Below, one piece after another: positions 7,374 through 62,166 of a DNA stretch of 64,000 bases. Source of the stretch: Thermoleophilia bacterium (lineage in GTDB: Bacteria > Actinomycetota > Thermoleophilia > RBG-16-64-13); NCBI GenBank assembly GCA_027493445.1, contig JAOSKU010000001.1:1878822-1942821 (forward strand), in the 5' to 3' direction. The notes below the pieces were generated by a model, which was not told where the DNA came from, ran no database searches, and saw nothing but the letters and a program-made list of their open reading frames with translations. Numbering within the stretch: the stretch's first letter is position 1; each line of letters opens with the position of its first letter. Made by a program: the position numbers and the translations under genes.

Positions 7374-9002
7374 TCACTCGGCTCCTTCTTCGACGGGACA
7401 CAGCCATGCCCTGTTACGCCTTGCGTACCATCTCATGAGGCGGCTCCCGCCCTCGTACATGCCGGGGCCGTACAGCCGGGAGTATAGACCCGAGAACTCC
7501 TTCTTCAGAAGCGGAGTAGGCGCAACGAGCGCTAGCCCGGCAACGGGGAGAAACCCCGCGAGAACCTCAACCAGCAGAACCGCAATCGCCGGAATGCCCA
7601 GTGCCTTCGCGCCCGCGTTCATCGGGACCCCGAGCGCTGCGACCATGATGCCTGCGAGGAGCATCACTCGATGCCTTCTGGCGAAAGCGCCCCGCGGCGA
7701 ATTCAGAATCTGGCGCGTGAGTAGCACGCATGCGAGCCAGTACGCTGCCTCGACCGCGCAGTATGCTGCAGCCACTCCGGACACTCCGTACGGGAGCGCG
7801 AGTGCCACCAATCCAACACCTACTACAAGGTACGCGACGTTCATCAGCAGTTTGGCGGTAAGCCGCGCGACAGAGTCAAACAAAACGCCCATCATGTGGG
7901 ACAGGAAAGTGAACGGCGCCGCGAGAGACATGAGGCGTAGCAGCGGCACGGCGGGCAGCCATTGCTGACCTAGCAGTACGGTGATTACTTCGCGCGCCGA
8001 CACGGCGACCATCACTGACAGAGGCACGGCGATAAGACCAGCAATCGAGTAGCTCGACAGGAAGGCGCCCCGCAGGCGTGATTGATCGTCTTGAACTGAG
8101 CTGAACGAAGGGAACAAGACCCGCGTCAATCCGGTGACGAGCTTCTCGGTTGAGTAGTTTGCCAAACGCTGGGCATTCGAGAAGTATCCTAAGGTTGAGG
8201 CTCCCAAGAATCTGCCTATCGCCACCGGCCCAATCGAGTAGCCGAGGAACTCAAAGAAGCTGATGACGGAAACGCGCCCTCCATAGCCGATCAAGGTGCG
8301 GTATCTCGATCCATCCATGCAAATGCCAATAGGGTGACGTACCGCGTTGTAGTTGAGGACTGCGGCTATCGCTGACTGGGATAGTAAGCCGAATACCACG
8401 CTCCAGACCCCATAGCCGAGTGCGGCAAGGGCCACACTCAAGGCACCGTACCCAATCAAATAGGAGAGCAACTCGTTCACCGCCAACCTGCGGAACGCTA
8501 ACCTTCTGCGCAGAAGGCTGGTTGACGTAACGGACAGGCCATCCAAGAGGAACATCAAGCTTACGACGCGAACCACTGACCCCGCAGCACGATCGTGGTA
8601 TACCAACCACGCCACCGATGGCCCGGCAAGCCAGAAGAAGACACTGAAGACAGCTCCAAGCGCGACGGCGACGGTTTGTGAAGCCAGGATGTCCTGATCG
8701 TAGATTCTTAGGCGCTGGACGAGCGCCGATCCCACGCCCATCTGCGCAAAGTACGACCCGAACCGAATGACCACGCCCGACATTGCCACAAGGCCAAATG
8801 CTTCGGGGCCAAGCAGCCGAGCCAGCGCGGCCGTCAGCCCAACCGCAGCTATTACGGATATTGCCGAAGAGGTATATGCCCATTTCACGCCCGAGAGCGC
8901 GCTCAAGGTCAGCGCTGAGCTCGCGCCGGTGTGCGGCTCGATTCCGGGCTCCCCGCGATTGCCCCCGCTATCGCGGTTTGCCACTGATGGGTCCTTCAGC
9001 AT
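7374..9002 (-). CDS. wzx: oligosaccharide/polysaccharide flippase (Wzx, MATE-like MOP superfamily)
   Basis: 542 aa and polytopic. The N-terminus LSGVKWAYTSSAISVIAAVGLTAALARLLGPEAFGLVAM matches the Wzx N-terminal signature. Confidence 0.7.
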   Translation of the reverse strand: MLKDPSVANRDSGGNRGEPGIEPHTGASSALTLSALSGVKWAYTSSAISVIAAVGLTAALARLLGPEAFGLVAMSGVVIRFGSYFAQMGVGSALVQRLRIYDQDILASQTVAVALGAVFSVFFWLAGPSVAWLVYHDRAAGSVVRVVSLMFLLDGLSVTSTSLLRRRLAFRRLAVNELLSYLIGYGALSVALAALGYGVWSVVFGLLSQSAIAAVLNYNAVRHPIGICMDGSRYRTLIGYGGRVSVISFFEFLGYSIGPVAIGRFLGASTLGYFSNAQRLANYSTEKLVTGLTRVLFPSFSSVQDDQSRLRGAFLSSYSIAGLIAVPLSVMVAVSAREVITVLLGQQWLPAVPLLRLMSLAAPFTFLSHMMGVLFDSVARLTAKLLMNVAYLVVGVGLVALALPYGVSGVAAAYCAVEAAYWLACVLLTRQILNSPRGAFARRHRVMLLAGIMVAALGVPMNAGAKALGIPAIAVLLVEVLAGFLPVAGLALVAPTPLLKKEFSGLYSRLYGPGMYEGGSRLMRWYARRNRAWLCPVEEGAE

Positions 9003-9829
9003 GCGGGAGAGGAGGTAGGGCCTCGGAATAGGAAGAAACCGCAGCCGTACTCAAGCGCCCTTGCGTCCCCTAGGCTCGCGTGCTCACGAAATGCACCTCC
9101 GTCGTCAACGAACGAAAACTCCATCAGCTCGCAGCCGGCGAACATCGCGACAACGGTCGCCGGATCGAATACTCGATGCGCGTTGAATACCACGCGCTCG
9201 CGGCCGACCGGGCAGCTCACGAAGAGATCGCCCCCGGGGGCTAGGACGCGGGACAGCTCTGCTGCGGCCTTTCGCGATCCGTCGGGGTCGATTAGGTCGC
9301 CATATCGGCCGAGCCCAATATGCTCGATCACATGGAGGCAGCTCAGTGATGTCACCGAACCCGTTTCGAGCGGCAGCGCACACAAGTCGCCAAAGCGCTG
9401 CTGCAGGTTCGGAACTTCGATGTCGATCGGCCGGATGTCGTAGTAGTCCAGGGGCAGCCAAGCACTCATCATCACGACGAACATGACCTGCGAGCCGACA
9501 TCGACGTGGTGGCCCCGACCCGCGGCTCGGATGCGTCGGGCCGCCCACCACGCCTGCACGACGTAGTGGTGGTCAACCGACTGACTCCCGCAGGACTCGC
9601 CGACCATCGCGCAAACCTCAGCAAGGGGTGCGCTACCTCCGGCTTGGTGGTAGCGCCAAAAGTCGAGCCAGAAGCGCGGGTAATCGGCCATGCGCATCCA
9701 GACCTGCAGATGCGACAACCGCCGCACTACATCCCTCGTTCGACGCGTGTGCGCCGCGACCGCGGGCCAGCGTTTCAATCGGCGAACAAATAAGTCCCGG
9801 GCGTCTGATGCTGCCGAGCGAGACATCAA
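8996..9829 (-). CDS. class I SAM-dependent methyltransferase (DUF268-like)
   Basis: CLHVIEHIGLGRYGD...LAPGGDLFVSCPVGRE matches the DUF268-type methyltransferase core. Confidence 0.6.
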   Translation of the reverse strand: MMSRSAASDARDLFVRRLKRWPAVAAHTRRTRDVVRRLSHLQVWMRMADYPRFWLDFWRYHQAGGSAPLAEVCAMVGESCGSQSVDHHYVVQAWWAARRIRAAGRGHHVDVGSQVMFVVMMSAWLPLDYYDIRPIDIEVPNLQQRFGDLCALPLETGSVTSLSCLHVIEHIGLGRYGDLIDPDGSRKAAAELSRVLAPGGDLFVSCPVGRERVVFNAHRVFDPATVVAMFAGCELMEFSFVDDGGAFREHASLGDARALEYGCGFFLFRGPTSSPAC

Positions 9830-10246
9830 CTACCGCCCGGCAACCACATCGGGGAGCGGCGGCGGCGTGGATGACTTTTCACCCTTATGCCCTGTTTCTT
9901 GCCACGGAACCCCAGCTGCTGGCACAGCTTGTCGTCGCTGGGCGGCTTTGGCGACATATTCAGCGGTCTCCACGGAGACCTGCTCGCGGGATTGCACCGC
10001 CAGCTCGTAGCTTTCGTCCGAGTGAGTCTCACTCACGATGCGGATGAGGCTAGTGTCGTGGGTCATGTGCCCGCAGCGCGCGAAAAAGCGCATACCCAAG
10101 TTCCGAGAACCGCAAATCAACGCCGATCGCGTATCCCCTTTCGAGAGGAGCTCAGGGAGGTAGTCTGCCTGCCGTCCGGTGATGCCGGCGATGCGTGCAG
10201 TTTTGAGCCCTCGGCCTGGTGCTTGTAGGTCATACGCAAGCCCTGC
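9830..10246 (-). pseudogene. gmd: GDP-mannose 4,6-dehydratase (gmd) N-terminal remnant, with no start codon and truncated after about 130 aa
   Basis: KTARIAGITGRQADYLPELLSKG...LIRIVSE..SDESYELAVQSREQVSVETAEY parallels the Gmd motifs ITGITGQDGSYLAELLLEKG, NLIRI..E.QPDEIYNLAAQSHVQVSFE.PEY. The frame has no ATG and ends after 96-130 codons. Confidence 0.55.
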
Positions 10247-10846
10247 CTAGCTCGATCTTAGGCCTCCGGGCAAGCAAAAACATCGCGATACGTCAAGGAG
10301 TTCATCCCACGTGTCATCGGGTATGATCCCCCCCCGGTATCGCGTCCTCGCGTCCCATAATCCCTGCACCAAGTCGGTACCTCGGCATCCCCCTCCCGTT
10401 GCTCCGCAACGCTTCCGGGAAGCCCCCAGCTCAAGCGCAGCAGGCCGTCGATGAAGCGGGCCGAGGTCGCCTTGGCTAGGCTACACGATAATGGTTTACC
10501 ATATCACACGCGAAGAGGTGAACCGGGCAGCACAGGCCGCCTCGCGGGTCCTGCTCTTCCCGACATCCAGGGATGCGTGTCGAAAACGTGGTTTCACCGA
10601 CTTTGCTCTCCGCCGGTCGCGCGAAGAGGAGAGCGAGGTAGCGGTCTCTTGCCACGGACGTTAGCAGAGCCACGGCGATGGTGCCCTTGTGCAAGTCCAG
10701 TCCCACAATGGTCAGAGAAGCTGTAGAGTTGTACATGGCCGGACCCCTTGATCGCATGTGGCTCGGCTCGGGGCCCATCTCCGAGCAATCCACGCCTATT
10801 GTGCGGCGCGAGGACCGGCCATTCCAAATTGACCAACGGAGGGCGC

Positions 10847-11692
10847 ATGAATACCCGCGCAATCGGAAAGAGGCTCTTGCCGCCGGCGCTCACGGACTTC
10901 GGGCAACGGCTGGGAATGCTGGGCGCCCGAGAGTGGGAATACGTTCCAGAGGGCTGGGCGCTGCGCGGGACGGGCGTGAGAGGATGGAACGTTGAGAAGG
11001 TGGTCGCCGAGGAGACGGCGAAGTGGCCCGGTTTCGTGGGTCTCGTAAACGGCACAGGTCCGCTCGGAATCGCACATGAGGCGCGAGCCGCATCCCAGCT
11101 TGACTACTCCGCTCACAACACCATTGCTGTTTTCGGCTACGTGCTCGCGAGAGCCGCGCACGCGAAGCACTCTATTGCGATCCTCGACTGGGGAGGCGGT
11201 CTCGGCCACTACTACGTGTTCAGCAGCGCGCTTCTCCCCGAGGTCGAGCTGGCGTACACCTGCAGAGACCTCCCCCTCATGTGCGCGGCAGGACGGCGAC
11301 TGCTGCCGGGCGTGACTTTCTGCGAGGATGATGCTTGCTGTCTCACTCGATCATATGACCTTGTCCATGCTGGCACTTCCCTCCAGTATTTTGAGGACTG
11401 GCGCGAGACTGCCAGCGCACTGGCCGGCGCGACATCCTCATACTTGTATGTGGCGCGCCTGCCCGTGGTAGAGGAGAGTGACTCGTTCGTTGTCTTGCAG
11501 CGCCCGTACCGATACGGTTATGAAACCGAGTATCTATGCTGGTACCTTCATCGTCGGGAGTTTCTGGCGCATCTCACATCCTGTGGACTCGAACTCGTAC
11601 GCGAATTCCTGATGATGGATCGGCCATTCGTCTATCATGCCCCTGAGCAGGGCGAGTACCGTGGCTTCCTATTCCGTCGGCGAGACCATTGA
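10847..11692 (+). CDS. LIC12133-family putative methyltransferase
   Basis: ILDWGGGLGHYY, and LVHAGTSLQYFEDW, match TIGR04325-type methyltransferases found in O-antigen loci. SD GGAGGG before ATG 10847. The ORF is open from 10748. Confidence 0.6.
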   Translation: MNTRAIGKRLLPPALTDFGQRLGMLGAREWEYVPEGWALRGTGVRGWNVEKVVAEETAKWPGFVGLVNGTGPLGIAHEARAASQLDYSAHNTIAVFGYVLARAAHAKHSIAILDWGGGLGHYYVFSSALLPEVELAYTCRDLPLMCAAGRRLLPGVTFCEDDACCLTRSYDLVHAGTSLQYFEDWRETASALAGATSSYLYVARLPVVEESDSFVVLQRPYRYGYETEYLCWYLHRREFLAHLTSCGLELVREFLMMDRPFVYHAPEQGEYRGFLFRRRDH

Positions 11693-17957: not shown

Positions 17958-18257
17958 TGTTGGTATTGGAAGTCTTCGAAACCTCAGCCGACTCCTGACA
18001 GCGAATCAATGACTCAGGACACAACCACGCCCTGTTGCAACTCGAGAGACAGTCGATCGGCCCAAGAGCGCTCGAAACGCTCGTCACCGCACCTGGTGAT
18101 CTTCATGAGGGATTCGCGTTCGCCAGGGATGACCTGGACTCGCTTGACGATCAATCGACCAGAACGCCCACTACATGCCTGTCGTGGATGGCACGCTTCG
18201 GCTGGCCTCCACCACGGCCCCGGCGAACGGGCTAGTCCGGCCCGGGCGACCGCCAGG

Positions 18258-19280
18258 ATGCCGCAACCCGACACCGCGGGAGCCAGCGAAACCCCTTACT
18301 GTCCAACGACCATCCTGGTGACTGGCGGCTGCGGCTTCATTGGCTCCAACTTCATCAGGCACATTCTCGCCAGCGATTCCACTGTCAGTGTGGTGAATCT
18401 GGACGCCCTCACCTATGCGGGCAACCCCGACAACCTGGCTGATGTCGAGGCCGGTTTCCCCTCACGCTATCGCTTTATCCATGGGGACATCCGCCACCAT
18501 GGGGCCGTCCGCAAAGCCATGGCGGACTGCGACACCGTGGTCCACTTTGCCGCGGAGAGCCACGTCGACCGCTCCATCGTCCATGCCCGTGACTTCATCA
18601 CCACCAACGTCGAGGGTACCTACGTGCTGCTCGAGGAGGCGCATCGGGCGGGCATTCAGCGTTTTCTCCACATCTCAACGGATGAGGTATACGGCTCCAC
18701 CGAATCCGGGTCGTTCAGCGAGGATGACCCTTTGGCCCCCTCCAGCCCCTACTCGGCTTCCAAAGCGGCTGCGGATCTCCTGGTGCTATCGTATGGCACT
18801 ACCTTCGACCTGCCTGTTCTCATAACCCGCAGCACCAACAACTTCGGACCCTACCAGTTCCCGGAAAAGCTGATCCCCTTGTTCATCACTAACTTGCTGG
18901 AAGGATCGGTCGTACCTTTGTACGGGGACGGCCTGAACGTGCGCGACTGGATCTACGTGCTGGACAACTGCCGGGCCCTCGATACGGTACTTCGTCTGGG
19001 TGCGGTCGGCGACGTCTACAACGTGGGGGCGGCTAATGAGGTCACCAACCATTACGTCACCACCTCACTCCTTGAGTCGCTCGGCGCTGGCGAGGAGATG
19101 GTCAACTACGTTGCGGACCGTCCCGGACACGACCGCCGCTACTCGGTCACGACTCACAAGGTCCGGGGGCTAGGCTGGGCGCCAACCCGCGACTTCCGCC
19201 AGGCTCTATCAGAGACCGTCTCTTGGTACGTCAACAATCCGCATTGGTGGAAAAGGATGAAGGAGCGCGTGGCTTTCTAG
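18258..19280 (+). CDS. rfbB: dTDP-glucose 4,6-dehydratase
   Basis: ILVTGGCGFIGSNFIRHIL...LTYAGN...DICD region and the YSASKAA catalytic motif. The ORF is open from 18009, but the upstream 83 codons are unlike RmlB. Confidence 0.85.
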   Translation: MPQPDTAGASETPYCPTTILVTGGCGFIGSNFIRHILASDSTVSVVNLDALTYAGNPDNLADVEAGFPSRYRFIHGDIRHHGAVRKAMADCDTVVHFAAESHVDRSIVHARDFITTNVEGTYVLLEEAHRAGIQRFLHISTDEVYGSTESGSFSEDDPLAPSSPYSASKAAADLLVLSYGTTFDLPVLITRSTNNFGPYQFPEKLIPLFITNLLEGSVVPLYGDGLNVRDWIYVLDNCRALDTVLRLGAVGDVYNVGAANEVTNHYVTTSLLESLGAGEEMVNYVADRPGHDRRYSVTTHKVRGLGWAPTRDFRQALSETVSWYVNNPHWWKRMKERVAF

Positions 19281-19341: not shown

Positions 19342-19689
19342 GTGATACCGCTCCCAGGCAGACGACCAGGAGGAGTATGCACGATGCACAGAAGACCGAG
19401 ACGGAATCACTCCCCGGCGTTCAAGGCCAAGGTGGCCCTGGAAGCCATCAGGGGTGAAGAGCCCCTCATCGTGATCGCTGAGCGGTTCGACGTGCACCCC
19501 AACCAGATCACCAAGTGGAAGCGGCAGCTCCTCGAGGGCGCAGCGACTGTCTTCGGGGAGGAAGAGAAGGCCAGGGAGGAGGGGCCCAGCGTCGCCGAAC
19601 TGCACGCGAAGATCGGCGAGCTCACCATGGAGTTGGGTTTTTTGTCCGGTGCGCTCGGTCGCATGAGCGGCCCGAGCGCAAGGCGATGA
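19342..19689 (+). CDS. IS3-family transposase OrfA (HTH)
   Basis: See the mobile-element entry above. Confidence 0.7.
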   Translation: MIPLPGRRPGGVCTMHRRPRRNHSPAFKAKVALEAIRGEEPLIVIAERFDVHPNQITKWKRQLLEGAATVFGEEEKAREEGPSVAELHAKIGELTMELGFLSGALGRMSGPSARR

Positions 19690-20050
19690 TCGACCGGACC
19701 TATCCTCTGTCGATCACGAGGCGGGCCGAACTTCTTGATCTCTCCCGCTCGAGCGTCTGCTACCAGCCCGCTCCGACGAGCGAGAGCGACCTGACCTTGA
19801 TGGCCGCCATGGACGAGATCCACCTGACCTACCCTTTTTATGGGATGAGGCGGATCCGGAACGAGCTCCGTGACCGGGGCTTCGTGGTGGGGCGCGGGCA
19901 CGTGGCCACCCTCATGCGGAAGATGGGCGTCCAGGCGCTCTATCCCAAGCGCCGGCTGTCCCTGCCGCACCCGGGGCACAGGATCTACCCCTACCTCCTG
20001 CGGGGGAGGGACATCGCCTGCGCCGGGGAAGTATGGGCGGCCGACGTCGA
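19342..20050 (+). mobile_element. IS3-family insertion sequence, 5' portion only. It carries orfA, a -1 slippery site and the N-terminal third of orfB, and is truncated by group II intron insertion at 20050/20051
   Basis: OrfA (19342-19689) has the HTH with FKAKVALEAIRGEEPLIVIAERF. The heptamer TTTTTTG lies at 19636-19642. The OrfB frame gives ERKAMIDRTYPLSITRRAELLDLSRSSVCYQP...GEVWAADV and then loses homology before the DDE W..DITY motif. Confidence 0.7.
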
Positions 20051-21068
20051 GCGCCACGAGGCGCTCTCCTACCGAGTGGAGGTGAAAGGACTCCACCGGC
20101 GGGCTGTCGCAGCAGCCCGCGCGAAGCTGAGGGCAGCCTGACCCTGGAGACGCAGGGAAGGGTGGCAAGCAGCCCTGACAACGACGGGACGGGTCGGCAC
20201 TGCCAGACGGCCCGGGTCCGGCAAGCAAGGCGGAAAGGTGTACGTAAGAAACCAGTGCTATAAGACCCCTAAAGTCGCACCACCAGCTCGAACCTGGCGG
20301 ATCTGGGCTGGGAAGCGGCGCGTACCCGCCGAGGCGGGGAACTCCTCTGCCGGTTCACATGTCGCTGGCAGGGAGGCCACACTGAAGAACTGCGGCGTAG
20401 GTGTGGCAAGGCCGCAGGGGCATAGCTGGGCACCTCCTCCGCCGATCGGTAGAAGAGTGAACGTGGGAACCCTCCGACGTCGCCCTCCCGCCCCGTGGTG
20501 GTGGGCAGGCCCGTCGTCGGCCGATGGCGCCGGAGGGGGCGGAGCCTGCATAGTAGTCCGAGGACGGGAAAGCCGTCCACATGGCGAAGGCAGGCAGCGA
20601 GTTCGCAGCAGAAGGACTGAAAAACCAGGAGGTCGCCCGTGAACACGGGTGCACCGTGGCCGAGCCTCCACGAGGCGGAAGCCCGGGTACTGGAGATTCA
20701 GACCAAGCTGCACCGCAGGGCCGGCGAAGACGAGGGTCGCCGGTTCGATGATCTTTTCAACCTCGTCTATGACCCGGCCTTCCTGCTCATAGCCTGGAGG
20801 CGGGTCCGGGAGAACAAGGGCGCCCGCACTGCTGGCGTCGACGGTGAGTCCGCTTGCAGCATCGAGACTCGTCGCGGCGTCGAGGCCTTCCTTTGCGATC
20901 TGCGCGGCCAACTCAAGGCCCGCACGTTTTGGCCTCAGCCTGTACGGGAGCGACTGATTCCCAAACCGGGGTCGCGGAAGCGACGTCGTCTGGGCATCCC
21001 CACCGTGCGGGATCGAGTAGTGCAGGCCGCCTTCAAGCTGGTGCTCGAACCCATCTTCGAGGCGGATT
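20051..21068 (+). mobile_element. group II intron copy 1, 5' part. Ribozyme domains I-III are followed by the start of the domain IV intron-encoded protein (RT domains 0-2, CDS 20639-21068). It is interrupted by the second intron
   Basis: The RT fragment shows GVDG, RLIPKPGSRKRRRLGIPTVRDRVVQ and LEPIFE. About 590 nt upstream (20051-20640) is paralogous to 21069-21670. The 5' end GAGCGCCACGAGGCGCT resembles the GUGCG consensus. Confidence 0.65.
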
Positions 21069-22527
21069 GTGCGCCACGAGGCGCTGTTTCACCGGGGGAG
21101 GTGAAAGACCTCCCTGGCTGGCCGTCGCAGCGGCCGGTTGGAAGCTGACGGCAGCCCGAGCTTGGGAGTGCAAGCATCGGGTGGGAGCAGCCGTGACGAC
21201 GTAGCGGAGGCGTGGTACTGCCAGACACGCCGGCCGCGCTAGCAAGATGGGAAGGGATAGCGATCGCGAACGAGTGCCTGACGCCCCTTGATTCGAAAAC
21301 GACCCAGAACCTGGTGGATGCGGGTCGGGGGCAGCGCTGCGGCGGCCGTAGTTTGTGGCCGCTGCTCTTGGGTGCCGCTTACTAGGTGCGGCGCGCGAGA
21401 CCGTGGGGAAGGGCTGCGGCGTACCCACGGTGAGGCTGCAGGGGTAAAGCTCGGTCCCGCCCCCGTCAACCGGTGGGCAGTGAACGTGGGAACCCTCCCG
21501 GTATCGCCCTCCCCGAAGGCCAGACAGGTCGTCGGCGGGCAGGCGCACTGTCAGCTGATGGTGCCGGGAGGGGGCAGAGCCCTCGTAGTAGTCGGAGCCC
21601 GGGAGAGCCGGGCACAGGGCGAAGGAGGGCAGCAGACTTGGCACGCGGTCCGGTCGCAAGGAGGTCGGCGGTGAATACCGTCGCGCCGTGGCCGTCGGTC
21701 TTGGAGGCCGAAGCCCGGGTACTTCATGTCCAGACCAAGTTCCACAAGTGGGCAGCAACCGATCAGACTCAGCAGTTCCACGATCTGTTCAACCTCGTTG
21801 GTGACCGGGCGACCCTGGTGGTGGCCTGGCAGCGGATACGGACGAATCGTGGCTCCCGCACGGCTGGAGTGGATGGAATCACCCGCCGCGACGTCGAGCA
21901 ACGCGTCGGCGTTGAGCGGTTTTTGGATGGCATCCGCTTGTCCTTGAAAGACGGGTCGTATCGGCCCCAACCGGTCCGTGAGCGCATGATCCCCAAGGCT
22001 GGCGGCAAGCTACGTCGGCTGGGGATCGCCACGCTGCGCGACCGGGTCGTGCAGATGGCGCTGAAGCTCGTGCTGGAACCGATCTTCGAGCCAGACCAGT
22101 ACCGGTCGAGCTACGCCTACCGGCCGGGACGCCGCGCTCAGGACGCCGTCGCCGAGATTGTTCACTTGGTGAACAACGGCTATGAGTGGGTGGTCGAGGG
22201 TGATGTGGAGGCCTGCTTCGATTCCATCGAGCATCGCTTGGTGGTGAAGCAGTTGCGTACTCGCCTCACCGACCATCGAGTCCTGGGGCTGTGCAAGGCG
22301 TTCCTGAAGGCCGGGGTGCTCACTGAACTGGGGCGGCTCCAACGAACGGTCACCGGCACGCCGCAGGGGGCATTATCTGCCCACTGTTTGCTAACCTGGC
22401 GCTGCACGCCGCTCTCGACGAGCACTTTGCCTCGGTGTGGGCGGCGCAGTCGAGGTATCGCAACCAGCGCACCTACCTGCGCTCCAAGGGGCAGGCCACC
22501 TATCGACTCATCCGCTATGCGGACTTA
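21069..22527 (+). mobile_element. group II intron copy 2, 5' part. It starts GTGCGCC inside the RT gene of copy 1. Its own RT (CDS 21671-22527, RT0-RT5) has a frame slip at the G run 22366-22370 and is broken in the YADD motif by an IS
   Basis: The RT shows GVDG, RLGIATLRDRVVQ, SYAYRPGRRAQDAV, ACFDSIEH and GTPQG, and after a one-base frame correction GIICPLFANLALH...RYAD, before the sequence is replaced. SD AAGGAGG precedes GTG 21671. Confidence 0.7.
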
Positions 22528-23940
22528 TGTTGAGCTCAACATAAGTCCGTGGGGGTATCCATTTAACCGGAGTAATCGAGATCGGCAGTTCTCCACGGGC
22601 GGTTCGCTGGAGGGCGCTCCAAGCTCGGGGGATGCCCGCGCGCCCGGGGTGGCGCAGGCGGTACTGCCCGGGGCCGCGGGCTGGCGATGAGGTCCTGGTA
22701 GCGCACCGGGTCGTGGCCGACGGCGAGATCGAGCAGCCGGTAGAACAGCATCCCGCTTGAGATTCACGGCGGCCAGTTCCTCGTCGGGCACCTTGATGCC
22801 CTTCTCGTAGGTGTTTTGGTCGAGTTCACAGCGCACCCGCAGTCCGGAGCGGGTCACGGTGGCCGCGATCAGGTTGACGATGACTTCGTGACTGATCAGA
22901 GGTTTGCCCCGCCAGTTCTGGGTGATGAACGAAAACAGGCGGTGCTCGATCCGGTTCCACTTGCTGGTGCCCGGGGAAGGTGAGAGACCCCGATCGTGAG
23001 CCCCGTCTCGTTGGCCAACTTCTGCAGTTCGACCTTCCACAGCCGGAGACGGTAGCCGTTGCTTCCCCCGCAGTCGGCGGTGATGAGGAGTCGGTGGGCG
23101 TCGGGGTACCTCTCTTTACCCATCGAGTGCCACCAGCGGAGAATGCTCTGCACGGCGAAAGCCGCGGTATCGTGGTCGGTGCCCACGCTGACCCAGCCCA
23201 GGTTGCCCGCCAGATCGTAGATCCCATAGGGGTTCGCCTTTCCCAACTCGGGGACCATGAAATCATGCACGCGCACCGCTTCTGGATCCCCCTTCGGACG
23301 CAGTTCTCGGCCCCCGTTCTTGAAGTCGCCCACCAGCTCCTTCTTCTTGGTGTCCACGGAGATGACCGGGTCGTTGCGGGCTTGGTACTCCTTGACCTTC
23401 TCGTTTAGGTGTCGAAACTGAGCGTCTCGATCGGGATGGGACGAGCCTTCCCGGGTCTTGCGGTTCCCCTGGAGGCTATAGCCCATGTCGTGCAGCAGTT
23501 CGGCGACCATGCGATGGCTCGTCTGGTGCCCCATCCGCGTGAGCTCATCGGCCAGGCGGCGAACGCTCTTTAAGGTCCAGCGCAAGGGCGACTCCGGATC
23601 GCCTCGGGTCTCCGGTTCCACCAGGCGCTCCAGGTCGTCGCGAAGGGTCGGATCCGTGTCCACGGTGCGCTTGCGTCCGCCGCCCTCTCGCCGGATGCGC
23701 CCGCGCGGCGCGAGGTCCGGATGGGCAAGCTCCCGAGATCCCGCCGTGATCGCCCGCCGCGAAACCCCCGTCACCCGGGCCACGAGCGTGTTCCCGCCCC
23801 GGCCGGCGGCCAACGCTTCCGCCGCGGCCACCAGGCGTCGGCTACGCTCATCTAGGAAGGGGGCCAAAAGCTCGAATCGTTCTTTGATGCCGGCCTCTCC
23901 ACCCATGCGGTGAAGCGTAGCACGGTCGGGCCGGTTTCGC
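22522..23940 (-). mobile_element. ISAzo13-family insertion sequence, truncated at the transposase C-terminal end. The transposase CDS is 22525-23906 with a frame slip at 22973-22976
   Basis: N-terminal HTH region, then VSHLPPGTSKWNRIEHRLFSFITQNWRGKPL, which is the ISAzo13 hallmark (YPPGTSKWNKIEHRLF). The expected distal FHGEWNY motif is absent. Confidence 0.65.
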
Positions 23941-24080
23941 TACTGTTATTTTGTGACAGGCCCTTAGAGGCGCCTAGCCTCTCGCTCTAGAAGCGTTCTC
24001 AAGGCTACAAACCGCGATCGGGCCCGAGCGAGCAGGGCTCCGTGCCCCCTCGTTATGCAGGTACGGTCTCCACTAATTGA

Positions 24081-25030
<950 letters not shown>

Positions 25031-25085
25031 CCGGTCTGGGGTCGTGGGCACGGCCTGTCCCCTTGCTTCCACCCACCCTAAGGGC

Positions 25086-25500
25086 CTAGCCCGATAGGGC
25101 CTCAGCCAGCCTGGCCGCCCGGGCCTTCTTGAAGGCGATGAGCCCGCAGGCCAGCATGAGCAGGGCCAGGTGGATCTCCTCCTTCTTGGACCAGCGGATG
25201 AGCAACGCCCGGTTACGATTGAGCCAGGAGTGACAGGCCTCCACCACGAGAGCGGCGGGCCCGCCAGCCGGGGGTCTTCGCCTTCTCTTGGATCTCCTCC
25301 CCCCGGCTACGGATGTGGGGGTGAGTTTGCAGTCGGGCAGGAGGGCCCGCACCTCGGCGCAGTCGTATCCCCGGTCCAGGCAGAGACCTTGAGGTGCTTC
25401 TTGCGTGGGCTCGGGCCGGGGGCGATGGGGATGGAATCAAGCGTGGCCTTCAGGAGCAGGTGGTCGTTGCGGTTGGCCCCGATATCTTATGGCCCTGGGC
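25086..25500 (-). pseudogene. IS5-family transposase C-terminal fragment (frameshifted and truncated)
   Basis: LDRGYDCAEVRALL... and ...VEACHSWLNRNRALLIRWSKK...LACGLIAFKKA are IS5-family C-terminal motifs, split over two frames. Confidence 0.5.
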
Positions 25501-25519
25501 CCGTAGTTCTTCGGCGAGG

Positions 25520-25888
25520 TTACTCAGACTCTTGGCCTTCGGAGCGCAGGGGCTGCTCGGGGTCGCCGCGGCTGTCCGTGTCTACCTGGCGCTCCAGATC
25601 GCCAAGCAGGCTGGGGTCCTTCTCCACCAGGGGCTTGCGGCCCGCACCCGGGCGACGAACCCGGCCGGGCTCAAACCTCTCCCCGCGCTTAAGCTCACCG
25701 CGGCCGCGCCGGATGGTGGAGCGCGCCATTCCAGTCGCTCGCGCAACCGCCGCCGTCCCGCCCCGCCCCTGGGCGTTGGCCTCCGCCGCCGCCCACAGCC
25801 GCATCCCGCGCTCGTCGAGCCGGACGGCAAGCATCTGGAATAGGCGATGGTAGCTCATTCCAACGACTTCCCCGATCAGAGGGAACAA
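25520..25888 (-). pseudogene. second ISAzo13-family transposase copy, N-terminal 120-aa fragment
   Basis: LAVRLDERGMRLWAAAEANAQGRGGTAAVARATGMARSTIRRGRGEL is collinear with the N-terminus of the 22525-23906 transposase (LAPFLDERSRRLVAAAEALAAGRGGNTLVARVTGVSRRAITAGSREL). Confidence 0.55.
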
Positions 25889-26098
25889 GCCACGCCCACC
25901 GTACGTATAGAAAGGCCTCGTCCCGCCTCTTGAATGGGCACAAAGCCATCTAGCAGGCCGCTGAAATACCCCGGTTGGAGCCCCTCCGATGTGCTCCGTT
26001 GCTCGGCTGCTTGACCCACGAACGGTCGGTTCTCGGATTGCCCGGGCGAAGACCGGGATTATGCCCCCTGGAGAGGCCGATTCCCCGCCCCTTTTTCC

Positions 26099-27268
26099 CT
26101 ATCTGGCGATGCACTCCGGAAGCAGCGATCTCATTCTCACCAGGTTGTAGGCGGCGGCCGTGAACTGGAAGATCCATCGGGCCTTGGCCCGCCCGCGGTG
26201 CCGGAGCTTGTGAAGCAGTCCGACTGTCTTCATCCAGCCGAAGGCCTCCTCCACCAGCTTGCGCTTCTTCTGGCTGAGGGCGTATCCCTCCCACCGTGTC
26301 GTGCGGCCATCGATGGCCGAGTACTTCTCTTTGCGAGCCACATGCGGGGTAACAACGTTAGTCCGTAGTTCGCCCACGAAGTCCTTGGTGTCGTAGTTCT
26401 TGTCGGCTGCGACAGTGAACCGGCCCTTGGTCTTTTTGCGCTCCTCCTTCACCAGCTCAAGACCCATCTCCCGCTCGGCGGTACCGGTGGCCCGGGAGAG
26501 ATCGGCCTGGACGATGAGACCGTGGCGGTTCTCGGTGAGGAGATGGCCGGCATAAGCGAGCCGGGCCGCTTCTCCGGGAGAGTGTTTGGCAAGAAGAGCT
26601 TCCGGATCGGTGGTGGAAGCGTGGGTGTCATTCCGGCGCCGCTCGCCGTGGAAATCCACACTCGGGTTGCGGTCGCGGCCTGCGCTTTCCGAGACTGGCT
26701 CGGCGGGGCTCGGGTCCTCCCCTGCACCCGGGTCATCTTTGCCTGGCCCCCGGCCGCCCTCCTGGCCCTCGGCCAATTCCTGTTTGGGCCGGAAGCTCTT
26801 GAGGGAGGCCGCCGCTTCCACCAAGGTGCCGTCCAGGCTGAAGTGCTCCCGGGAAAGGAGTTTCCCCGCCTGGGCCTGCTTCCTCACCTCCAGGAAGAAG
26901 GCCTCGGCCACCTCGCCCTCAAGCAGGCGCTCCCGGTTTTGGGTGAAGGTGGTGGGATGCCAGACGGGCTCGTTTAGATCGAGGCCCACAAACCAGCGAA
27001 AGAGCAGGTGATACTCGAGGTGTTCGCAGAGCTTGCGCTCCGAAGGGATGGCGTAGAGCACCTGAATAAGCAGGGCTCGCAGAAGGTACTCGGGCGGGAT
27101 GGAGGGGCGGCCGGCTTCACAGTAGATCTTGTCAAAGAGGGGGGAGAGACCGCAAAGCGCCTTATCGGTCATCTTGCGGATGGCCCGCAAGGGGTGATCT
27201 TTGGGGATGCGCTCCTCCAAGGGACCCAAGAATACAAACGACGGCTGCCTTGCCTCTTCTCCCCGCAT
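26099..27268 (-). CDS. IS5-family DDE transposase (DUF772 N-terminal region plus DDE_Tnp_1), apparently intact
   Basis: 389 aa. LRALLIQVLYAIPSERKLCEHLEYHLLFRWFVGLDL (DUF772) and C-terminal ...DKNYDTKDFV..., ...GWMKTVGLLHKLRHRG... Confidence 0.7.
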   Translation of the reverse strand: MRGEEARQPSFVFLGPLEERIPKDHPLRAIRKMTDKALCGLSPLFDKIYCEAGRPSIPPEYLLRALLIQVLYAIPSERKLCEHLEYHLLFRWFVGLDLNEPVWHPTTFTQNRERLLEGEVAEAFFLEVRKQAQAGKLLSREHFSLDGTLVEAAASLKSFRPKQELAEGQEGGRGPGKDDPGAGEDPSPAEPVSESAGRDRNPSVDFHGERRRNDTHASTTDPEALLAKHSPGEAARLAYAGHLLTENRHGLIVQADLSRATGTAEREMGLELVKEERKKTKGRFTVAADKNYDTKDFVGELRTNVVTPHVARKEKYSAIDGRTTRWEGYALSQKKRKLVEEAFGWMKTVGLLHKLRHRGRAKARWIFQFTAAAYNLVRMRSLLPECIAR

Positions 27269-47984: not shown

Positions 47985-50354
47985 TTGCCCGCGGGGGTGG
48001 GCACTCGCTACAGTGAGCGGGTGACCACCTCTTCCTCAGTATCCCGCTCCACCCGCGGGCGCCTCGGTCTGGGCCTGGCCGCCTTCCTGGCGGCCGTAGA
48101 GCTGGGCCTGGCCTTCCGCGCCGGGTCGTACTTCCCCCGTTCGTGGTTGCCCCTGGCCCTGGCGGTCGCCGCGGTCGCGTTGGTGCTGGTGGGCTTCGGA
48201 CCGCGCCCTCACTTCAGCCGAGGGCAGGCTTTGCTGCTGGGGGCGTTCGGTCTGCAGGCTGTCTGGACCGGCGTGAGCCTGGCCTGGGCCGGCAGCTCCA
48301 CCAACGCCTGGCAGGAAGCGGACCGGACCCTGCTCTACGTGATCGGTGTGGGTTTGGCCGCCCTCGCCGTGCGCTGGGCCGGCAGCCGGGGTCTACGCTG
48401 GCTGGCGGCTCTGCTCTTGGGAGCCATCGGCGTGGTGGCCCTGGCCACGCTCGGGCGGCTGGCCGCAGGAAGCGAGCTCGTACGGCTCTTCACGGGCGGG
48501 CGCCTGCAGTACCCGGTGACCTACTGGAACGGCCTGGCCGCCCTGCTCATGATGGGTTTCTGGCTGGCGCTGGGGCTGAGCACCGCTCCCCGGCGGGCGT
48601 GGTGGCGGCAGGCCCTGCTCCTGGGGACAGCGGTGGCCCTGGCCGAGGTGGCGCTGCTGCCTCAGTCCCGGGGAGCCCTCTGGAGCTTCTTCCTGGTTGC
48701 GCCCTGGCTGCTGGTACTGAGCGCCCACCGCTTCCGGGCGGTGGCCAACCTGGGCTTCGTCTGCCTCACGGTGGCGCTGGCCTGGCCCAAGCTGATCGGA
48801 GTGTTCCAGCCGGCCCGGCTGGCGGCTCGAGGAGGGGGCGCGCAGGCGGGCGCAGCCGGGGTCGTTCCCCTGCCTACGGCGGTGGAACAGGCGTTGCTGG
48901 CGTTGCTGCTTTCGGTGCTGGCCGCGGCGGCCTTCGGAGCAGTGAGCACGCTGGTGGAGGCCCGCCTCTCCCCCCTCGAGCGCCGCTGGGCGCGGGCCAT
49001 CGGCGCCGGACTGGTGATGATGGCCCTGGTGGTGGCCGGCTTCGGGGTGGTGGGTCTGCAGCGGGCCAAGGGCGACCTGAGCGAACTAGCTCGCGACACG
49101 TGGAGTCAGGTGGCCGCAGACCGAGGGCCGGGGGGAGAGACGAGCTCCCGTTTCAGCGACGTAGGGCTGAATGGCCGCCTCGAGCAGTGGCGTATCGCTT
49201 GGCGGGCCTTCGAGGAGCAGCCCCTGCTGGGCTTGGGCGCCCAGAACTACGAGTTCTACTTCTTCCAGCACCGCACCACGGGGTTGGCGGTGCGCCAGCC
49301 GCACAGCCAACCGATGCAGCTGCTGTCGGAGCTGGGACTGCCGGGGGCGGCCCTGTGGCTGCTCTTCGTGGGCGGCGTGCTGATCCGCGGGACGCGTGTG
49401 CGCTTCCGGATGACCCGGGGAGTGAACCGGGCGGCGGTCACGGCCGCTCTGCTGGCGGTGGGCTCTTGGTTCATCCACTCCTCGGCCGACTGGCTCTGGC
49501 AGCTGGGGGGAGTCTCCTGGCCGGCGGTGCTCTTGCTGGGCGGACTGCTGGCGGTGAGGAGCGGGGAGACGGAGACCGGGACGCGCGAAGCGAGCGGGGG
49601 ACGCAGAGCCGGCGGCCGCGGGGCCGCGGAGGGGAGCGGAGCGGGCGGGAGCGGAGCGGGCGGGCGGATACTACAGGGCGTGGTGATCACGACGGCGGCG
49701 GCGCTGCTGGTGTCGGGCTCGGTCTCTTACCTTTCGCTGCGCTACTTGGCTCTGGCCTCGGCGGGCAATGGCACGCCCGAACAGGCACTCGCGGCGACTC
49801 ACACCGCCGGACAGCTGGATCCATTCACACCTGAGGGAGCGATGGCCGAGGCCCAGGTGTATCGGGAGGCGGCCCGGGCAGCGGCCGCCTCATCGGGTCC
49901 CGCCCGGGCCTGGGCGGCTCTGGACAACCTGGCCCTGGCAGCCGCCGCCCGGCAACGGGCGGCCGAACGCGAGCCACTGAGCTGGTTCATCGCCTACCAG
50001 ACCGGCCTCGCCCTGCTTGAGTACCGGGAGGCGGCCATCGAGGCGGGCGCACTCGACGCCCCAGGGGATGGGCCGCTCGACTCCGGCTCCGGCGAGGCGC
50101 CGGCCGCGGGGGCTTGGTCGTTGCTCCGCGGCCTCGCCCGATCCCCAGCCGCCGGTCCGGGAGAAGCCCCGGGCTCGCTGGCCTCCACGCAGGACCGCCG
50201 CGAGACGGTGGCGCGCTTCCGGGCGCTCACCCAACGGGAACTGACCGACCTGGCCCTCTCCTACCTGGAGCAGGCCGAAGGACTGAACCCCAGGGAGCAG
50301 CTGGTGAGCCGGGCCGTCGAGCGCAGCCGTGGAGGGGAGCCGAGTGAGCACTGA
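47985..50354 (+). CDS. O-antigen ligase family (Wzy_C) polytopic membrane protein with a ~300-aa Ala-rich, TPR-like C-terminal extension
   Basis: Wzy_C hallmark NYEFYFFQHRTTGLAVRQPHSQPMQLLSELGLPGAALWLL. About 10 TM helices. Confidence 0.65.
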   Translation: MPAGVGTRYSERVTTSSSVSRSTRGRLGLGLAAFLAAVELGLAFRAGSYFPRSWLPLALAVAAVALVLVGFGPRPHFSRGQALLLGAFGLQAVWTGVSLAWAGSSTNAWQEADRTLLYVIGVGLAALAVRWAGSRGLRWLAALLLGAIGVVALATLGRLAAGSELVRLFTGGRLQYPVTYWNGLAALLMMGFWLALGLSTAPRRAWWRQALLLGTAVALAEVALLPQSRGALWSFFLVAPWLLVLSAHRFRAVANLGFVCLTVALAWPKLIGVFQPARLAARGGGAQAGAAGVVPLPTAVEQALLALLLSVLAAAAFGAVSTLVEARLSPLERRWARAIGAGLVMMALVVAGFGVVGLQRAKGDLSELARDTWSQVAADRGPGGETSSRFSDVGLNGRLEQWRIAWRAFEEQPLLGLGAQNYEFYFFQHRTTGLAVRQPHSQPMQLLSELGLPGAALWLLFVGGVLIRGTRVRFRMTRGVNRAAVTAALLAVGSWFIHSSADWLWQLGGVSWPAVLLLGGLLAVRSGETETGTREASGGRRAGGRGAAEGSGAGGSGAGGRILQGVVITTAAALLVSGSVSYLSLRYLALASAGNGTPEQALAATHTAGQLDPFTPEGAMAEAQVYREAARAAAASSGPARAWAALDNLALAAAARQRAAEREPLSWFIAYQTGLALLEYREAAIEAGALDAPGDGPLDSGSGEAPAAGAWSLLRGLARSPAAGPGEAPGSLASTQDRRETVARFRALTQRELTDLALSYLEQAEGLNPREQLVSRAVERSRGGEPSEH

Positions 50355-60462: not shown

Positions 60463-62166
60463 TCACTCGGCTTCGAGGGCCTGCAGCGCGTTCTCCAGGA
60501 GCTGCGCCGCCTCGCCCCGGGTCATCGAGCCCCAGGGGTCAAGGGCCCCCAGGGGCAGCCCCTCCAGCAGCCCGCTCGCCTCGGCCGACCGGGCGGTATC
60601 TCGGTGAGGGACGTCGAGATCGTCGTCCCACGCGCCGCGGAAGCCGGCGGACGCCACCGCCAGCACGCCCGGCGCCTCCGCCTGGAGGGCGCGCACCACC
60701 ATGGTCACGGCCTGCCCGCGGGTGATCTCGCCCCGCGGAGCGAAGGTGCCTGCGTCGAGGCCGGTCACGAAACCCCGCGCGGCCGCCACGGCGATGTAGT
60801 TGTCGGGGTAGAGGGTGCCCGGGCCGCCGTCTTCCACGTCGGCGAAGGGGCAGACGTCGGCCTCGCCGACCGGCGCCCGAAAGGCCAGCACCAGCATCTT
60901 GGCGAACTGCTGGCGCCAGAGGGGATCGAAGGCGCCCATGTCGCCGCCGGCGTACCCCTGCATGATGCCGCGGGCGCGCAGATCGGCCAGGGCCTGGTCG
61001 TAGGTGTGAGGCTGGTAGGGGTTCACACCCTGGTCGGGCCGGCCCACGTGGGCGGAGAGCTCCTCCCACACCTGGCGCAGCCGGGCGCGCTCGGTTGCGG
61101 TGAGACCCAGGTCGGAGCCGGAGTCGAGGCGCGGATGGGCGGGAAGCACGCGGTACTGGGTTCGGCCGCCGCTCCAGGACTGCTGCACGTAGACCGGCAG
61201 GTAGCGTAGCCCGGTGACGCGGGCGCCCTCGGCGTCTTTCTCGACGTCGGCGTAGAGCAGCAGGCCGCTGTCCCGGTAGCGCAGGCGCTGAGTAGAGACG
61301 AAGTTGCCCAGGGAGTAGGCGGCGTAGCGATACCCTCCCCCCGGCACGCTCACCCGCTCGATGGGCTGGACGACGTGAGGGTGGGCTCCCACCACCAGGT
61401 CGACCCCGCCCCGCAGCAGGGCGGTGGCGAGCGCACGCTGCTGCTCGGTGGCGTAGCGCTGGTACTCGTTCCCGAAGTGGAGAAAAGCCACCACCACATC
61501 GGCGCCCTCGGCCCGCGCCCGAGCCGCCTCGCCGAGCACCGTCTGCTGGGAGAGCAGGTTGACCGCATGGGGGCGGCCGGCGGGCAGCGGGAGACCGTTC
61601 AGGTAGTCGGTGTAGTTCAGGAAGGCCACTCGCACCCCGCGCACGCCGACGCTGAAGACCCGGGCCTGCTCGGCGGCAGTGCGGTTGGTGCCCACGTGGG
61701 CTAGGCTGGCCCGGTCGAGAGCGTCGAGGGTGTTGACCACGCCCGGCCAACCCATGTCCAGGCTGTGGTTGTTGGCGGTTCCCATGAGGTCGAAGCCGGT
61801 GGCCCGCAACGCGGGGGCCAGGTCGGCGGGCGAGTTGAAAGTGGGGTACCCGTGGTAGCCGTAGGCAGCCCCGGCCAGCCGGGTCTCGAGGTTGGCCACG
61901 GCGTAGTCGGCCTCCCGTACGTAAGGGGCGATAGGCGCGAAGATCCGCTCGAACTGGTAGCGGCCGGTGCCCGGATCGTACACCGAGTCGCCCAGGGGCT
62001 TGTGCATGAGTAGGTCGCCGGCGAAAACCAGGGTGATATGGGTGAGACCGGCGGCGGTCTGGGCTACGTCGGCGCGGGCGACGGTACTCCCCGACAGGAG
62101 CAAGACCATGCAGGCCAAGGCCAGCGGGGCCAGGAGACGCCACAGCCCTCGGCGTGTGGCGGTCAT
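60463..62166 (-). CDS. CapA-family (PGA_cap metallophosphatase-like) protein fused to three C-terminal SLH domains, with a signal peptide
   Basis: N-terminal ...LVFAGDLLMH... CapA region, and C-terminal repeats such as ...YPDNYIAVAAARGFVTGLDAGTFAPRGEITRGQAVTMVVRAL that are SLH-like. Confidence 0.6.
   Translation of the reverse strand: MTATRRGLWRLLAPLALACMVLLLSGSTVARADVAQTAAGLTHITLVFAGDLLMHKPLGDSVYDPGTGRYQFERIFAPIAPYVREADYAVANLETRLAGAAYGYHGYPTFNSPADLAPALRATGFDLMGTANNHSLDMGWPGVVNTLDALDRASLAHVGTNRTAAEQARVFSVGVRGVRVAFLNYTDYLNGLPLPAGRPHAVNLLSQQTVLGEAARARAEGADVVVAFLHFGNEYQRYATEQQRALATALLRGGVDLVVGAHPHVVQPIERVSVPGGGYRYAAYSLGNFVSTQRLRYRDSGLLLYADVEKDAEGARVTGLRYLPVYVQQSWSGGRTQYRVLPAHPRLDSGSDLGLTATERARLRQVWEELSAHVGRPDQGVNPYQPHTYDQALADLRARGIMQGYAGGDMGAFDPLWRQQFAKMLVLAFRAPVGEADVCPFADVEDGGPGTLYPDNYIAVAAARGFVTGLDAGTFAPRGEITRGQAVTMVVRALQAEAPGVLAVASAGFRGAWDDDLDVPHRDTARSAEASGLLEGLPLGALDPWGSMTRGEAAQLLENALQALEAE

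What the first reader, a model, noticed from the sequence alone, without database searches (positions are those of the whole stretch)
9830..10246. Decayed GDP-mannose 4,6-dehydratase fragment at the head of the minus-strand glycan operon
The frame upstream of the DUF268 methyltransferase has no start codon but encodes ...ARIAGITGRQADYLPELLSKG...LIRIVSE..SDESYELAVQSREQVSVETAEY. This is collinear with the Gmd Rossmann and SDR motifs (ITGITGQDGSYLAELLLEKG, NLIRI...QPDEIYNLAAQSHVQVSFE.PEY), though heavily substituted. It ends after about 130 codons. The cluster therefore once used a GDP-deoxyhexose (rhamnose or fucose type) and has since lost it. It now relies on the dTDP route (rfbA, rfbB plus aminotransferase). 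That is a visible example of O-antigen locus remodelling.
Basis: partly seen in the sequence, partly recalled or inferred. Interest (0 to 1): 0.5.

Follow-up and report, generated by a model that had tools for sequence, protein, structure and literature searches.

The report
Dead GDP-mannose dehydratase gene stub
A roughly 290-base stretch in front of a surface-sugar gene operon is the broken first third of a GDP-mannose 4,6-dehydratase gene, an ordinary gene remnant of a kind already well known in such loci.

Summary
Window 10231..9944 on the minus strand (core 10204..9944) is homologous to residues about 4-114 of GDP-mannose 4,6-dehydratase (Gmd), and to no other sugar dehydratase. The supporting scores are:
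- PDB: the nine best hits are all Gmd (best E 1.5e-5).
- NCBIfam: TIGR01472 gmd is the only hit (E 9.7e-10, 38 bits against a cutoff of 415).
- Exhaustive phmmer over 1.84 billion proteins: best non-self hit E 3.7e-10.
- tblastn with an intact Gmd: E 1.5e-11.

It is a pseudogene stub:
- It has no in-frame start codon before TTG 10120.
- The GxxGxxG motif is degraded to GITGRQA.
- 14 of the 34 columns that are at least 95% conserved in Gmd are substituted.
- About 15-20 codons are deleted.
- Two compensating frameshifts are likely (p about 0.002).
- The C-terminal roughly 250 codons, which carry the catalytic residues, are absent in every frame.
- The DUF268 methyltransferase gene starts 115-215 nt downstream.

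Two other assemblies carry the identical DNA, so this is not a sequencing error. The window has no intact gmd or fcl.

The historical claim, that this cluster once made a GDP-deoxyhexose, is plausible but unproven. No close relative with an intact gmd was found, and gmd lies near DUF268 genes in only 5 of 160 loci.

This is an ordinary finding of low interest.

The parts
9944..10231 (-). gmd pseudogene remnant, homologous to Gmd residues about 4-114. The conservative core is 9944-10204.
   Evidence: tblastn with the intact L007 Gmd matches 10231..9944 at E 1.5e-11. Frameshift-aware profile alignment places profile positions 4-106 on 10204..9944. TIGR01472 E 9.7e-10. PDB hits are all Gmd.
10166..10186 (-). 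Degenerate NADP-binding Rossmann motif: GITGRQA in place of the Gmd motif GITGQDG, with the third glycine lost.
   Evidence: Translation. Alignment with 103 Gmd N-termini.
10098..10142 (-). Segment that matches Gmd better in a different frame: ERGYAIGVDLRFSEL against EKGYEVHGIKRRSSS. This implies two compensating frameshifts, near 10143 and near 10100, next to a deletion of about 15 codons.
   Evidence: Frameshift-aware alignment gains 7.8 score units over the single-frame path. Only 4 of 2500 shuffles of this segment reach that gain.
10231..10233 (-). Out-of-frame ATG that may be the former gmd start codon (reads MTYKHQAEGSK...). A 1-nt shift before codon K at 10204 would join it to the Gmd frame. 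This is inference only.
   Evidence: ORF 10117..10239. Sequence.
9830..9943 (-). Tail of the open frame with no Gmd similarity in any frame. Its codon-position GC pattern is not that of a coding sequence in this frame. It lies downstream of the point where Gmd homology ends and ends in TAG 9832-9830.
   Evidence: Three-frame local alignments against three Gmds give only non-collinear matches at the level of noise. GC1/2/3 is 0.79/0.61/0.55, against about 0.65/0.48/0.70 for real genes.
8996..9829 (-). DUF268-family methyltransferase, the first intact gene of the minus-strand operon. The likely true start is GTG 9727, and the frame is open back to TTG 9829.
   Evidence: Pfam PF03269 E 1.4e-14. 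A gene caller used the 243-aa form in L001 and L002. Homologues align from residue about 16 of that form.

Best explanation
This is a non-functional 5' remnant of a GDP-mannose 4,6-dehydratase gene (gmd). It sits in the roughly 1-kb spacer between two divergent polysaccharide-synthesis operons.

What is shown: a rearrangement removed the 3' two-thirds of gmd, from about codon 115 onward, including the catalytic Thr/Glu and YxxxK region. The DUF268 methyltransferase, Wzx flippase, glycosyltransferase and Wzy genes now lie downstream of that point.

What is inferred: the rearrangement was most likely a recombination or cassette replacement of the kind that shuffles O-antigen and capsule loci. 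The stub then drifted without selection. It lost its start codon and its cofactor-binding glycine. It picked up a deletion of 15-20 codons, probably two frameshifts, and substitutions at 14 of 34 near-invariant positions.

It makes no enzyme. Its only plausible present role is passive, as part of the untranslated leader or promoter region of the minus-strand operon. That role is also inferred, not tested.
For: Homology specific to Gmd is shown.

Disabling lesions:
- No start codon before 10120.
- GxxGxxG is broken, and identity to the Gmd consensus is 52-53%, against a median of 82% for real Gmd N-termini.
- Only 17-20 of the 34 columns that are at least 95% conserved are kept.
- An internal deletion and likely frameshifts.
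- No homology beyond 9944 in any frame, and no other gmd or fcl in the window.

Identical DNA occurs in Logan assemblies of SRR11288141 (19,824 bases, 0 mismatches, 1 gap elsewhere) and SRR25580095 (1,969 bases, 100%).

The only protein-database relative of the small ORF is its own identical copy.

The stub still has a coding-like codon-position GC pattern of 0.63/0.49/0.71, as expected of a former gene.

Gene remnants are a recognised anomaly of O-antigen clusters, read as marks of fairly recent rearrangement. Nine of 178 E. coli serogroups show them (PMC7685785), and Yersinia pseudotuberculosis carries a tyv remnant at a recombination junction (PMC5399914).
Against: The 139-codon frame contains no stop codon, which is mildly unexpected for fully neutral DNA. 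A gene caller did call an 87-aa ORF there (P0001).

No intact ancestral arrangement was found in any relative, so the direction and timing of the rearrangement are inferred.

No insertion-sequence end or repeat marks the breakpoint.
Confidence: 0.9

Rival explanations
1. The remnant did not decay in place. It arrived already broken, as a passenger at the edge of a horizontally transferred cassette or as a scrap of the donor's locus. On this view the present cluster in this lineage never used a GDP-sugar.
For: DUF268 methyltransferase relatives are 56% identical or less and are scattered over many phyla, which suggests a mobile gene. Only 5 of 160 DUF268 loci have gmd within 6 kb, and never adjacent. 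Transposases and a group II intron lie close to the cluster.
Against: The GC content and codon-position pattern of the remnant match its neighbours. There is no mobile-element end at the junction. This is still the same object, a dead gmd stub; only its history differs.
Confidence: 0.3
2. The open frame, or its 87-96-aa ORF starting at ATG 10093 or TTG 10120, is expressed as a small protein. Alternatively the stub has been co-opted as a regulatory leader of the glycan operon.
For: There is no stop codon in 139 codons. A gene caller predicted the 87-aa ORF in two assemblies. The position is directly upstream of the operon. An ops-like GGCGGTAG overlaps the end of the frame.
Against: The only homologue in 5.8 billion clustered proteins is the identical copy. 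The ORF would begin in the middle of a Rossmann fold and could not fold as an SDR. The 8-mer occurs 6 times in the window against 2.4 expected, and there is no JUMPstart match in Rfam. No sigma-70-like promoter or terminator was found. Spurious ORFs of this length are common at 62% GC.
Confidence: 0.05
3. The fragment is an artefact: either a chance resemblance or a sequencing or assembly error that splits an intact gmd.
For: None beyond the low Pfam score of 16 bits.
Against: E is 3.7e-10 in an exhaustive search of 1.84e9 proteins. TIGR01472 is the only family hit. Two other assemblies carry identical DNA. The missing roughly 250 codons are not present in any frame, and the next gene starts within about 215 nt.
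Confidence: 0.01

Closest known systems
GDP-mannose 4,6-dehydratase (Gmd; NCBIfam TIGR01472, Pfam PF16363, extended SDR family)
   Same: The N-terminal 110 residues align collinearly. They include the Gmd-specific GITGQDG-YLAELLL Rossmann segment and the LIRI..PDEIYNLAAQSHV.VSFE.PEYT segment. No other sugar-nucleotide dehydratase family scores.
   Different: Only about 30% of the length is present. It has no start codon, and the cofactor motif is broken. The catalytic Thr/Glu and Tyr-XXX-Lys region is absent. It scores 38 bits against the 415-bit family cutoff, so it is not a functional member.
Gene remnants in O-antigen and capsule gene clusters (for example the tyv remnant in the Yersinia pseudotuberculosis Abe module, galF/gnd remnants flanking the Y. 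kristensenii O:11 cluster, and remnants in 9 of 178 E. coli O-antigen clusters)
   Same: It is a truncated, decayed sugar-pathway gene at the edge of an operon in a polysaccharide locus with mobile elements nearby. Such remnants are conventionally read as the scar of a cassette replacement.
   Different: The organism is unidentified. It has about 62% GC and encodes an SLH-domain protein in the window, so it is not an enterobacterium. No partner locus with the intact gene is available, and no IS element lies at the junction itself.

Membership tests
GDP-mannose 4,6-dehydratase (functional enzyme, TIGR01472) | Sequence homology to Gmd that is specific over other SDR sugar dehydratases | tested here: met
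   TIGR01472 is the only NCBIfam hit (E 9.7e-10). The top nine PDB hits are all Gmd. Best non-self hit in the exhaustive search is E 3.7e-10.
GDP-mannose 4,6-dehydratase (functional enzyme, TIGR01472) | Whole-protein score above the curated equivalog cutoff of 415 bits, and a full length of about 340-370 aa | tested here: not met
   The score is 38.2 bits. Only Gmd residues about 4-114 are represented.
GDP-mannose 4,6-dehydratase (functional enzyme, TIGR01472) | Intact GxxGxxG NADP-binding motif (GITGQDG) | tested here: not met
   The sequence reads GITGRQA, with the third glycine replaced.
GDP-mannose 4,6-dehydratase (functional enzyme, TIGR01472) | Catalytic Thr/Glu and Tyr-XXX-Lys residues of the SDR active site | tested here: not met
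   The region that would carry them (Gmd residues about 125-165) is absent in all three frames downstream of 9944 and anywhere else in the window.
GDP-mannose 4,6-dehydratase (functional enzyme, TIGR01472) | A translatable ORF with a start codon ahead of the Rossmann motif | tested here: not met
   There is no ATG, GTG or TTG between the stop at 10249-10247 and TTG 10120.
Pseudogene or gene remnant at a polysaccharide-locus junction | Significant homology to a known gene together with disabling lesions (truncation, lost start, indels, substitutions at invariant sites) | tested here: met
   14 of 34 near-invariant columns are substituted, and identity to the consensus is 52-53% against a median of 82%. 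There is a deletion and likely frameshifts. The 3' end is truncated.
Pseudogene or gene remnant at a polysaccharide-locus junction | A relative with the intact gene at the same position, which would show the ancestral state | tested here: not met
   No close relative of the locus exists in genome contigs or metagenome contigs. DUF268 relatives are 56% identical or less, and gmd is never adjacent.
JUMPstart / ops (RfaH-dependent antitermination leader) | An ops 8-mer within a JUMPstart-like conserved leader upstream of a polysaccharide operon | tested here: not met
   GGCGGTAG is present at 9830-9837 on the minus strand, but there are 6 copies in the window against 2.4 expected. Rfam gives no JUMPstart match even at E<=10.

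The most novel reading that the evidence does not exclude
The dead gmd stub may be retained because it now serves as the promoter or 5' leader of the DUF268-wzx-GT-wzy operon, or because it encodes an expressed 87-96-aa peptide. On that reading a pseudogene has been co-opted to control surface-glycan expression.
Probability: 0.05. Interest if true: 0.35.

Novelty: new member of a known kind. Interest (0 to 1): 0.12.

Why it matters
It matters little beyond annotation. The stub should be labelled a gmd pseudogene rather than a hypothetical 87-aa protein. It marks a past rearrangement of this glycan locus. It cautions against predicting GDP-fucose, GDP-rhamnose or GDP-perosamine type sugars for this polysaccharide. 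It also offers a small worked example of how far a gene scrap can decay (about 53% identity to the consensus, lost start, frameshifts) and still be assigned to its exact enzyme family.

Tried and rejected
1. The word-indexed protein search with the fragment found only its own identical 87-aa copy. The exhaustive search was needed to reach Gmd.

2. I looked for the ancestral arrangement through the DUF268 neighbour in genome contigs and metagenome contigs. The 160 loci are all 56% identical or less, and only 5 have gmd 2-6 kb upstream. No synteny evidence came of it.

3. I looked for an extension of Gmd homology past 9944 in other frames. Only non-collinear matches at the level of noise appeared.

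4. An RfaH ops / JUMPstart leader was rejected.

5. The promoter and terminator consensus scan of 9500-11000 found nothing.

6. I looked for repeats or IS ends at the breakpoint. Only short matches at the level of chance appeared.

7. My first guess was that IVGLDLHKGTIAVALL at about 10680 on the minus strand is an IS110 transposase scrap. There is no Pfam, NCBIfam, plasmid or PDB support.

8. A second remnant, the ACT domain of prephenate dehydratase at 10479-10784 on the minus strand, remains unproven. PDB 2qmx gives E 0.22, and E. coli PheA aligns the same region at a pairwise E of 0.95. There are no profile hits, and the only database relative is itself.

9. An exact-sequence look-up of the Wzx protein failed, probably because the gene caller chose a different start.

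Full report
**What is in the sequence**

Read on the minus strand, window 10246..9830 is an open frame of 139 codons. It is bounded by TAG at 10249-10247 and TAG at 9832-9830. The first possible start codon in this frame is TTG at 10120, which lies downstream of the Rossmann-type motif.

**Is the Gmd resemblance real and specific?**

Yes. Five independent searches agree.
- A phmmer search of all PDB chains returned 11 hits at E<=10. Nine are labelled GDP-mannose 4,6-dehydratase, and a tenth (5uzh, a structural-genomics entry) aligns like one. The best E is 1.5e-5. No dTDP-glucose dehydratase or other SDR appeared.
- Pfam's broad PF16363 model gave only 16 bits.
- The specific NCBIfam equivalog TIGR01472 (gmd) was the sole family hit, at E 9.7e-10 and 38 bits.
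- An exhaustive phmmer scan of 1.84 billion representative proteins gave 158 hits at E<=1e-3, with the best non-self hit at 3.7e-10. All nine hits I checked carry TIGR01472 over the matching stretch.
- tblastn with an intact 369-aa Gmd taken from a fetched locus (L007, where it is followed by a GDP-fucose-synthase-like gene) matched window 10231..9944 at 39% identity and E 1.5e-11.

**Anatomy of the remnant**

Homology covers Gmd residues about 4-114, on window 10231/10204..9944.

I aligned the fragment with 103 Gmd N-termini.
- The fragment is 52-53% identical to the consensus, where real Gmds have a median of 82%.
- Of the 34 columns that are at least 95% conserved, it keeps 17-20 and has substitutions at 14.
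- The cofactor motif GITGQDG reads GITGRQA.
- HYGD reads RCGH.
- YNLAAQSHV reads YELAVQSRE.
- About 15-20 residues between the KGY and HYGD motifs are missing.

A frameshift-aware profile-to-DNA alignment that I wrote confirms the extent, with profile positions 4-106 on 10204..9944. It also shows that 10142..10098 matches Gmd better in another frame: ERGYAIGVDLRFSEL against EKGYEVHGIKRRSSS. The score gain was reached by only 4 of 2500 shuffles of that segment. Two compensating frameshifts are therefore likely, and the unbroken 139-codon frame is partly accidental.

An out-of-frame ATG at 10233-10231 may be the former start codon. This is inference only.

Downstream of 9944, three-frame alignments to three Gmds give only non-collinear noise. 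The codon-position GC pattern there stops looking like coding sequence in this frame, whereas the homologous part still has the coding-like 0.63/0.49/0.71 pattern of its neighbours.

The window contains no other Gmd-like or Fcl-like gene beyond generic SDR paralogues.

The DUF268 methyltransferase gene begins at 9727 (the gene caller's choice) or at most 9829. The roughly 250 missing codons are therefore physically absent.

**Not an assembly artefact**

The same DNA occurs in a 23-kb Logan contig from SRR11288141, which matches 19,824 bases with 0 mismatches and 1 gap that lies outside the fragment. It also occurs in a 2-kb contig from SRR25580095, at 100% over 8400-10368.

**Context**

The minus-strand operon downstream of the stub encodes:
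- the DUF268 methyltransferase
- a Wzx-type flippase
- an unassigned protein
- two glycosyltransferase-like proteins
- a hexapeptide acyltransferase
- a Wzy_C protein
- a GT2 glycosyltransferase.

The divergent plus-strand operon encodes:
- two methyltransferases
- an SDR epimerase/dehydratase
- a DegT aminotransferase
- an unassigned protein
- RmlA (TIGR01207, above cutoff), after an intervening minus-strand GT4
- RmlB (TIGR01181, above cutoff).

The scanned ORFs include no rmlC or rmlD.

Mobile elements lie just beyond rmlB: an IS3-type helix-turn-helix ORF, a group II intron reverse transcriptase, an ISAzo13-type transposase and an IS5-like transposase.

**History: what is shown and what is inferred**

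It is shown that a gmd gene once stood here and was truncated at about codon 115. It is also shown that the stub has accumulated disabling lesions.

The mechanism is inferred: the truncation came from a cassette replacement or deletion typical of polysaccharide loci.

That claim is that this cluster used a GDP-deoxyhexose and later switched to the dTDP route.
- The DUF268 gene's nearest relatives in 185,579 species genomes and in the JGI metagenomes are 56% identical or less, and they are scattered across phyla.
- Only 5 of 160 such loci carry gmd within 6 kb. In each it is upstream and co-directional but not adjacent.
- No locus shows the intact ancestral arrangement.
- The stub could have been imported already broken.
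- A working gmd elsewhere in the genome cannot be excluded from 64 kb.

**Rivals**

- A chance match or an assembly error is excluded by the results above.
- A functional small protein or a co-opted leader is unlikely. The only database relative of the ORF is its identical copy. The ORF would start in the middle of the fold.
- The ops-like GGCGGTAG at 9830-9837 occurs six times in the window against 2.4 expected, and Rfam finds no JUMPstart.
- No promoter-like or terminator-like sites were found.

**Comparison with what is known**

Gene remnants are a catalogued anomaly of O-antigen gene clusters, taken as signs of relatively recent rearrangement.
- Nine of 178 E. coli serogroups have them (PMC7685785).
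- In Yersinia pseudotuberculosis, a tyv remnant marks the recombination junction that created the Abe module (PMC5399914).
- The Y. kristensenii O:11 cluster is flanked by galF and gnd remnants (PMC5399914).

The present case is one more example, in an unidentified organism of about 62% GC.

It is homologous to Gmd but is not a member of the functional family. It fails the cutoff score, the length, the start codon, the cofactor motif and the catalytic-residue tests.

**Verdict**

This is an ordinary pseudogene scar, of low interest.

Noticed in passing
window 10479-10784 (-): The ORF upstream of the gmd stub was called as a 100-aa protein, P0151, in other assemblies. It weakly resembles the ACT regulatory domain and C-terminus of prephenate dehydratase. 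PDB 2qmx gives E 0.22 and is collinear over 83 residues, and the ORF ends about where the enzyme would. E. coli PheA aligns the same region at a pairwise E of 0.95. There are no Pfam or NCBIfam hits. If real, the 1-kb spacer would hold two adjacent gene scraps (pheA 3' end and gmd 5' end). It is not significant as it stands.
   Followed up: partly
window 9830-9837 (-): The 8-mer GGCGGTAG, identical to the RfaH ops core, overlaps the stop codon of the remnant frame just ahead of the DUF268 gene. There are 6 copies in the window against 2.4 expected, and there is no JUMPstart match. It is probably chance.
   Followed up: yes
window 19384-27268: A cluster of mobile elements lies just beyond rmlB: an IS3-type HTH_Tnp_1 ORF (about 19384-19689), a group II intron reverse transcriptase (21473-22690), an ISAzo13-type DDE transposase (22896-23906) and an IS5-like transposase (26099-27268). 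The Logan contig L001 ends at window position about 19824, as expected at a repeated element.
   Followed up: partly
window 18009-19280 (+): The RmlB ORF is 423 aa, but family homology starts at residue about 101. The roughly 100-residue N-terminal extension has no family match. Either the start is mis-set or there is an extra domain.
   Followed up: no
loci L003-L162 (DUF268 relatives): Relatives of the DUF268 methyltransferase are at most about 56% identical. They occur in Proteobacteria, Nitrospira, Planctomycetes, Verrucomicrobia, Bacteroidota, Cyanobacteria, Bacillota, Actinobacteria and even an archaeal MAG. This points to a widely exchanged glycan-modification gene.
   Followed up: partly
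window 47985-50354 (+) and 60463-62166 (-): The window has a second, much larger Wzy_C (O-antigen ligase/polymerase-like) protein of 789 aa, and a PGA_cap capsule-synthesis protein fused to S-layer-homology repeats. The SLH domain hints that the host is not a classical proteobacterium.
   Followed up: no
proteins P0002, P0007, P0016, P0038, P0050 (search hits): Many of the top representative hits to the fragment are themselves chimeric or frameshifted metagenomic gene calls. Examples are a Gmd N-terminus fused to FeoB, Fcl or UDP-glucose dehydrogenase sequence. Outlier clusters in the 50% representative library are enriched for broken gmd calls.
   Followed up: no
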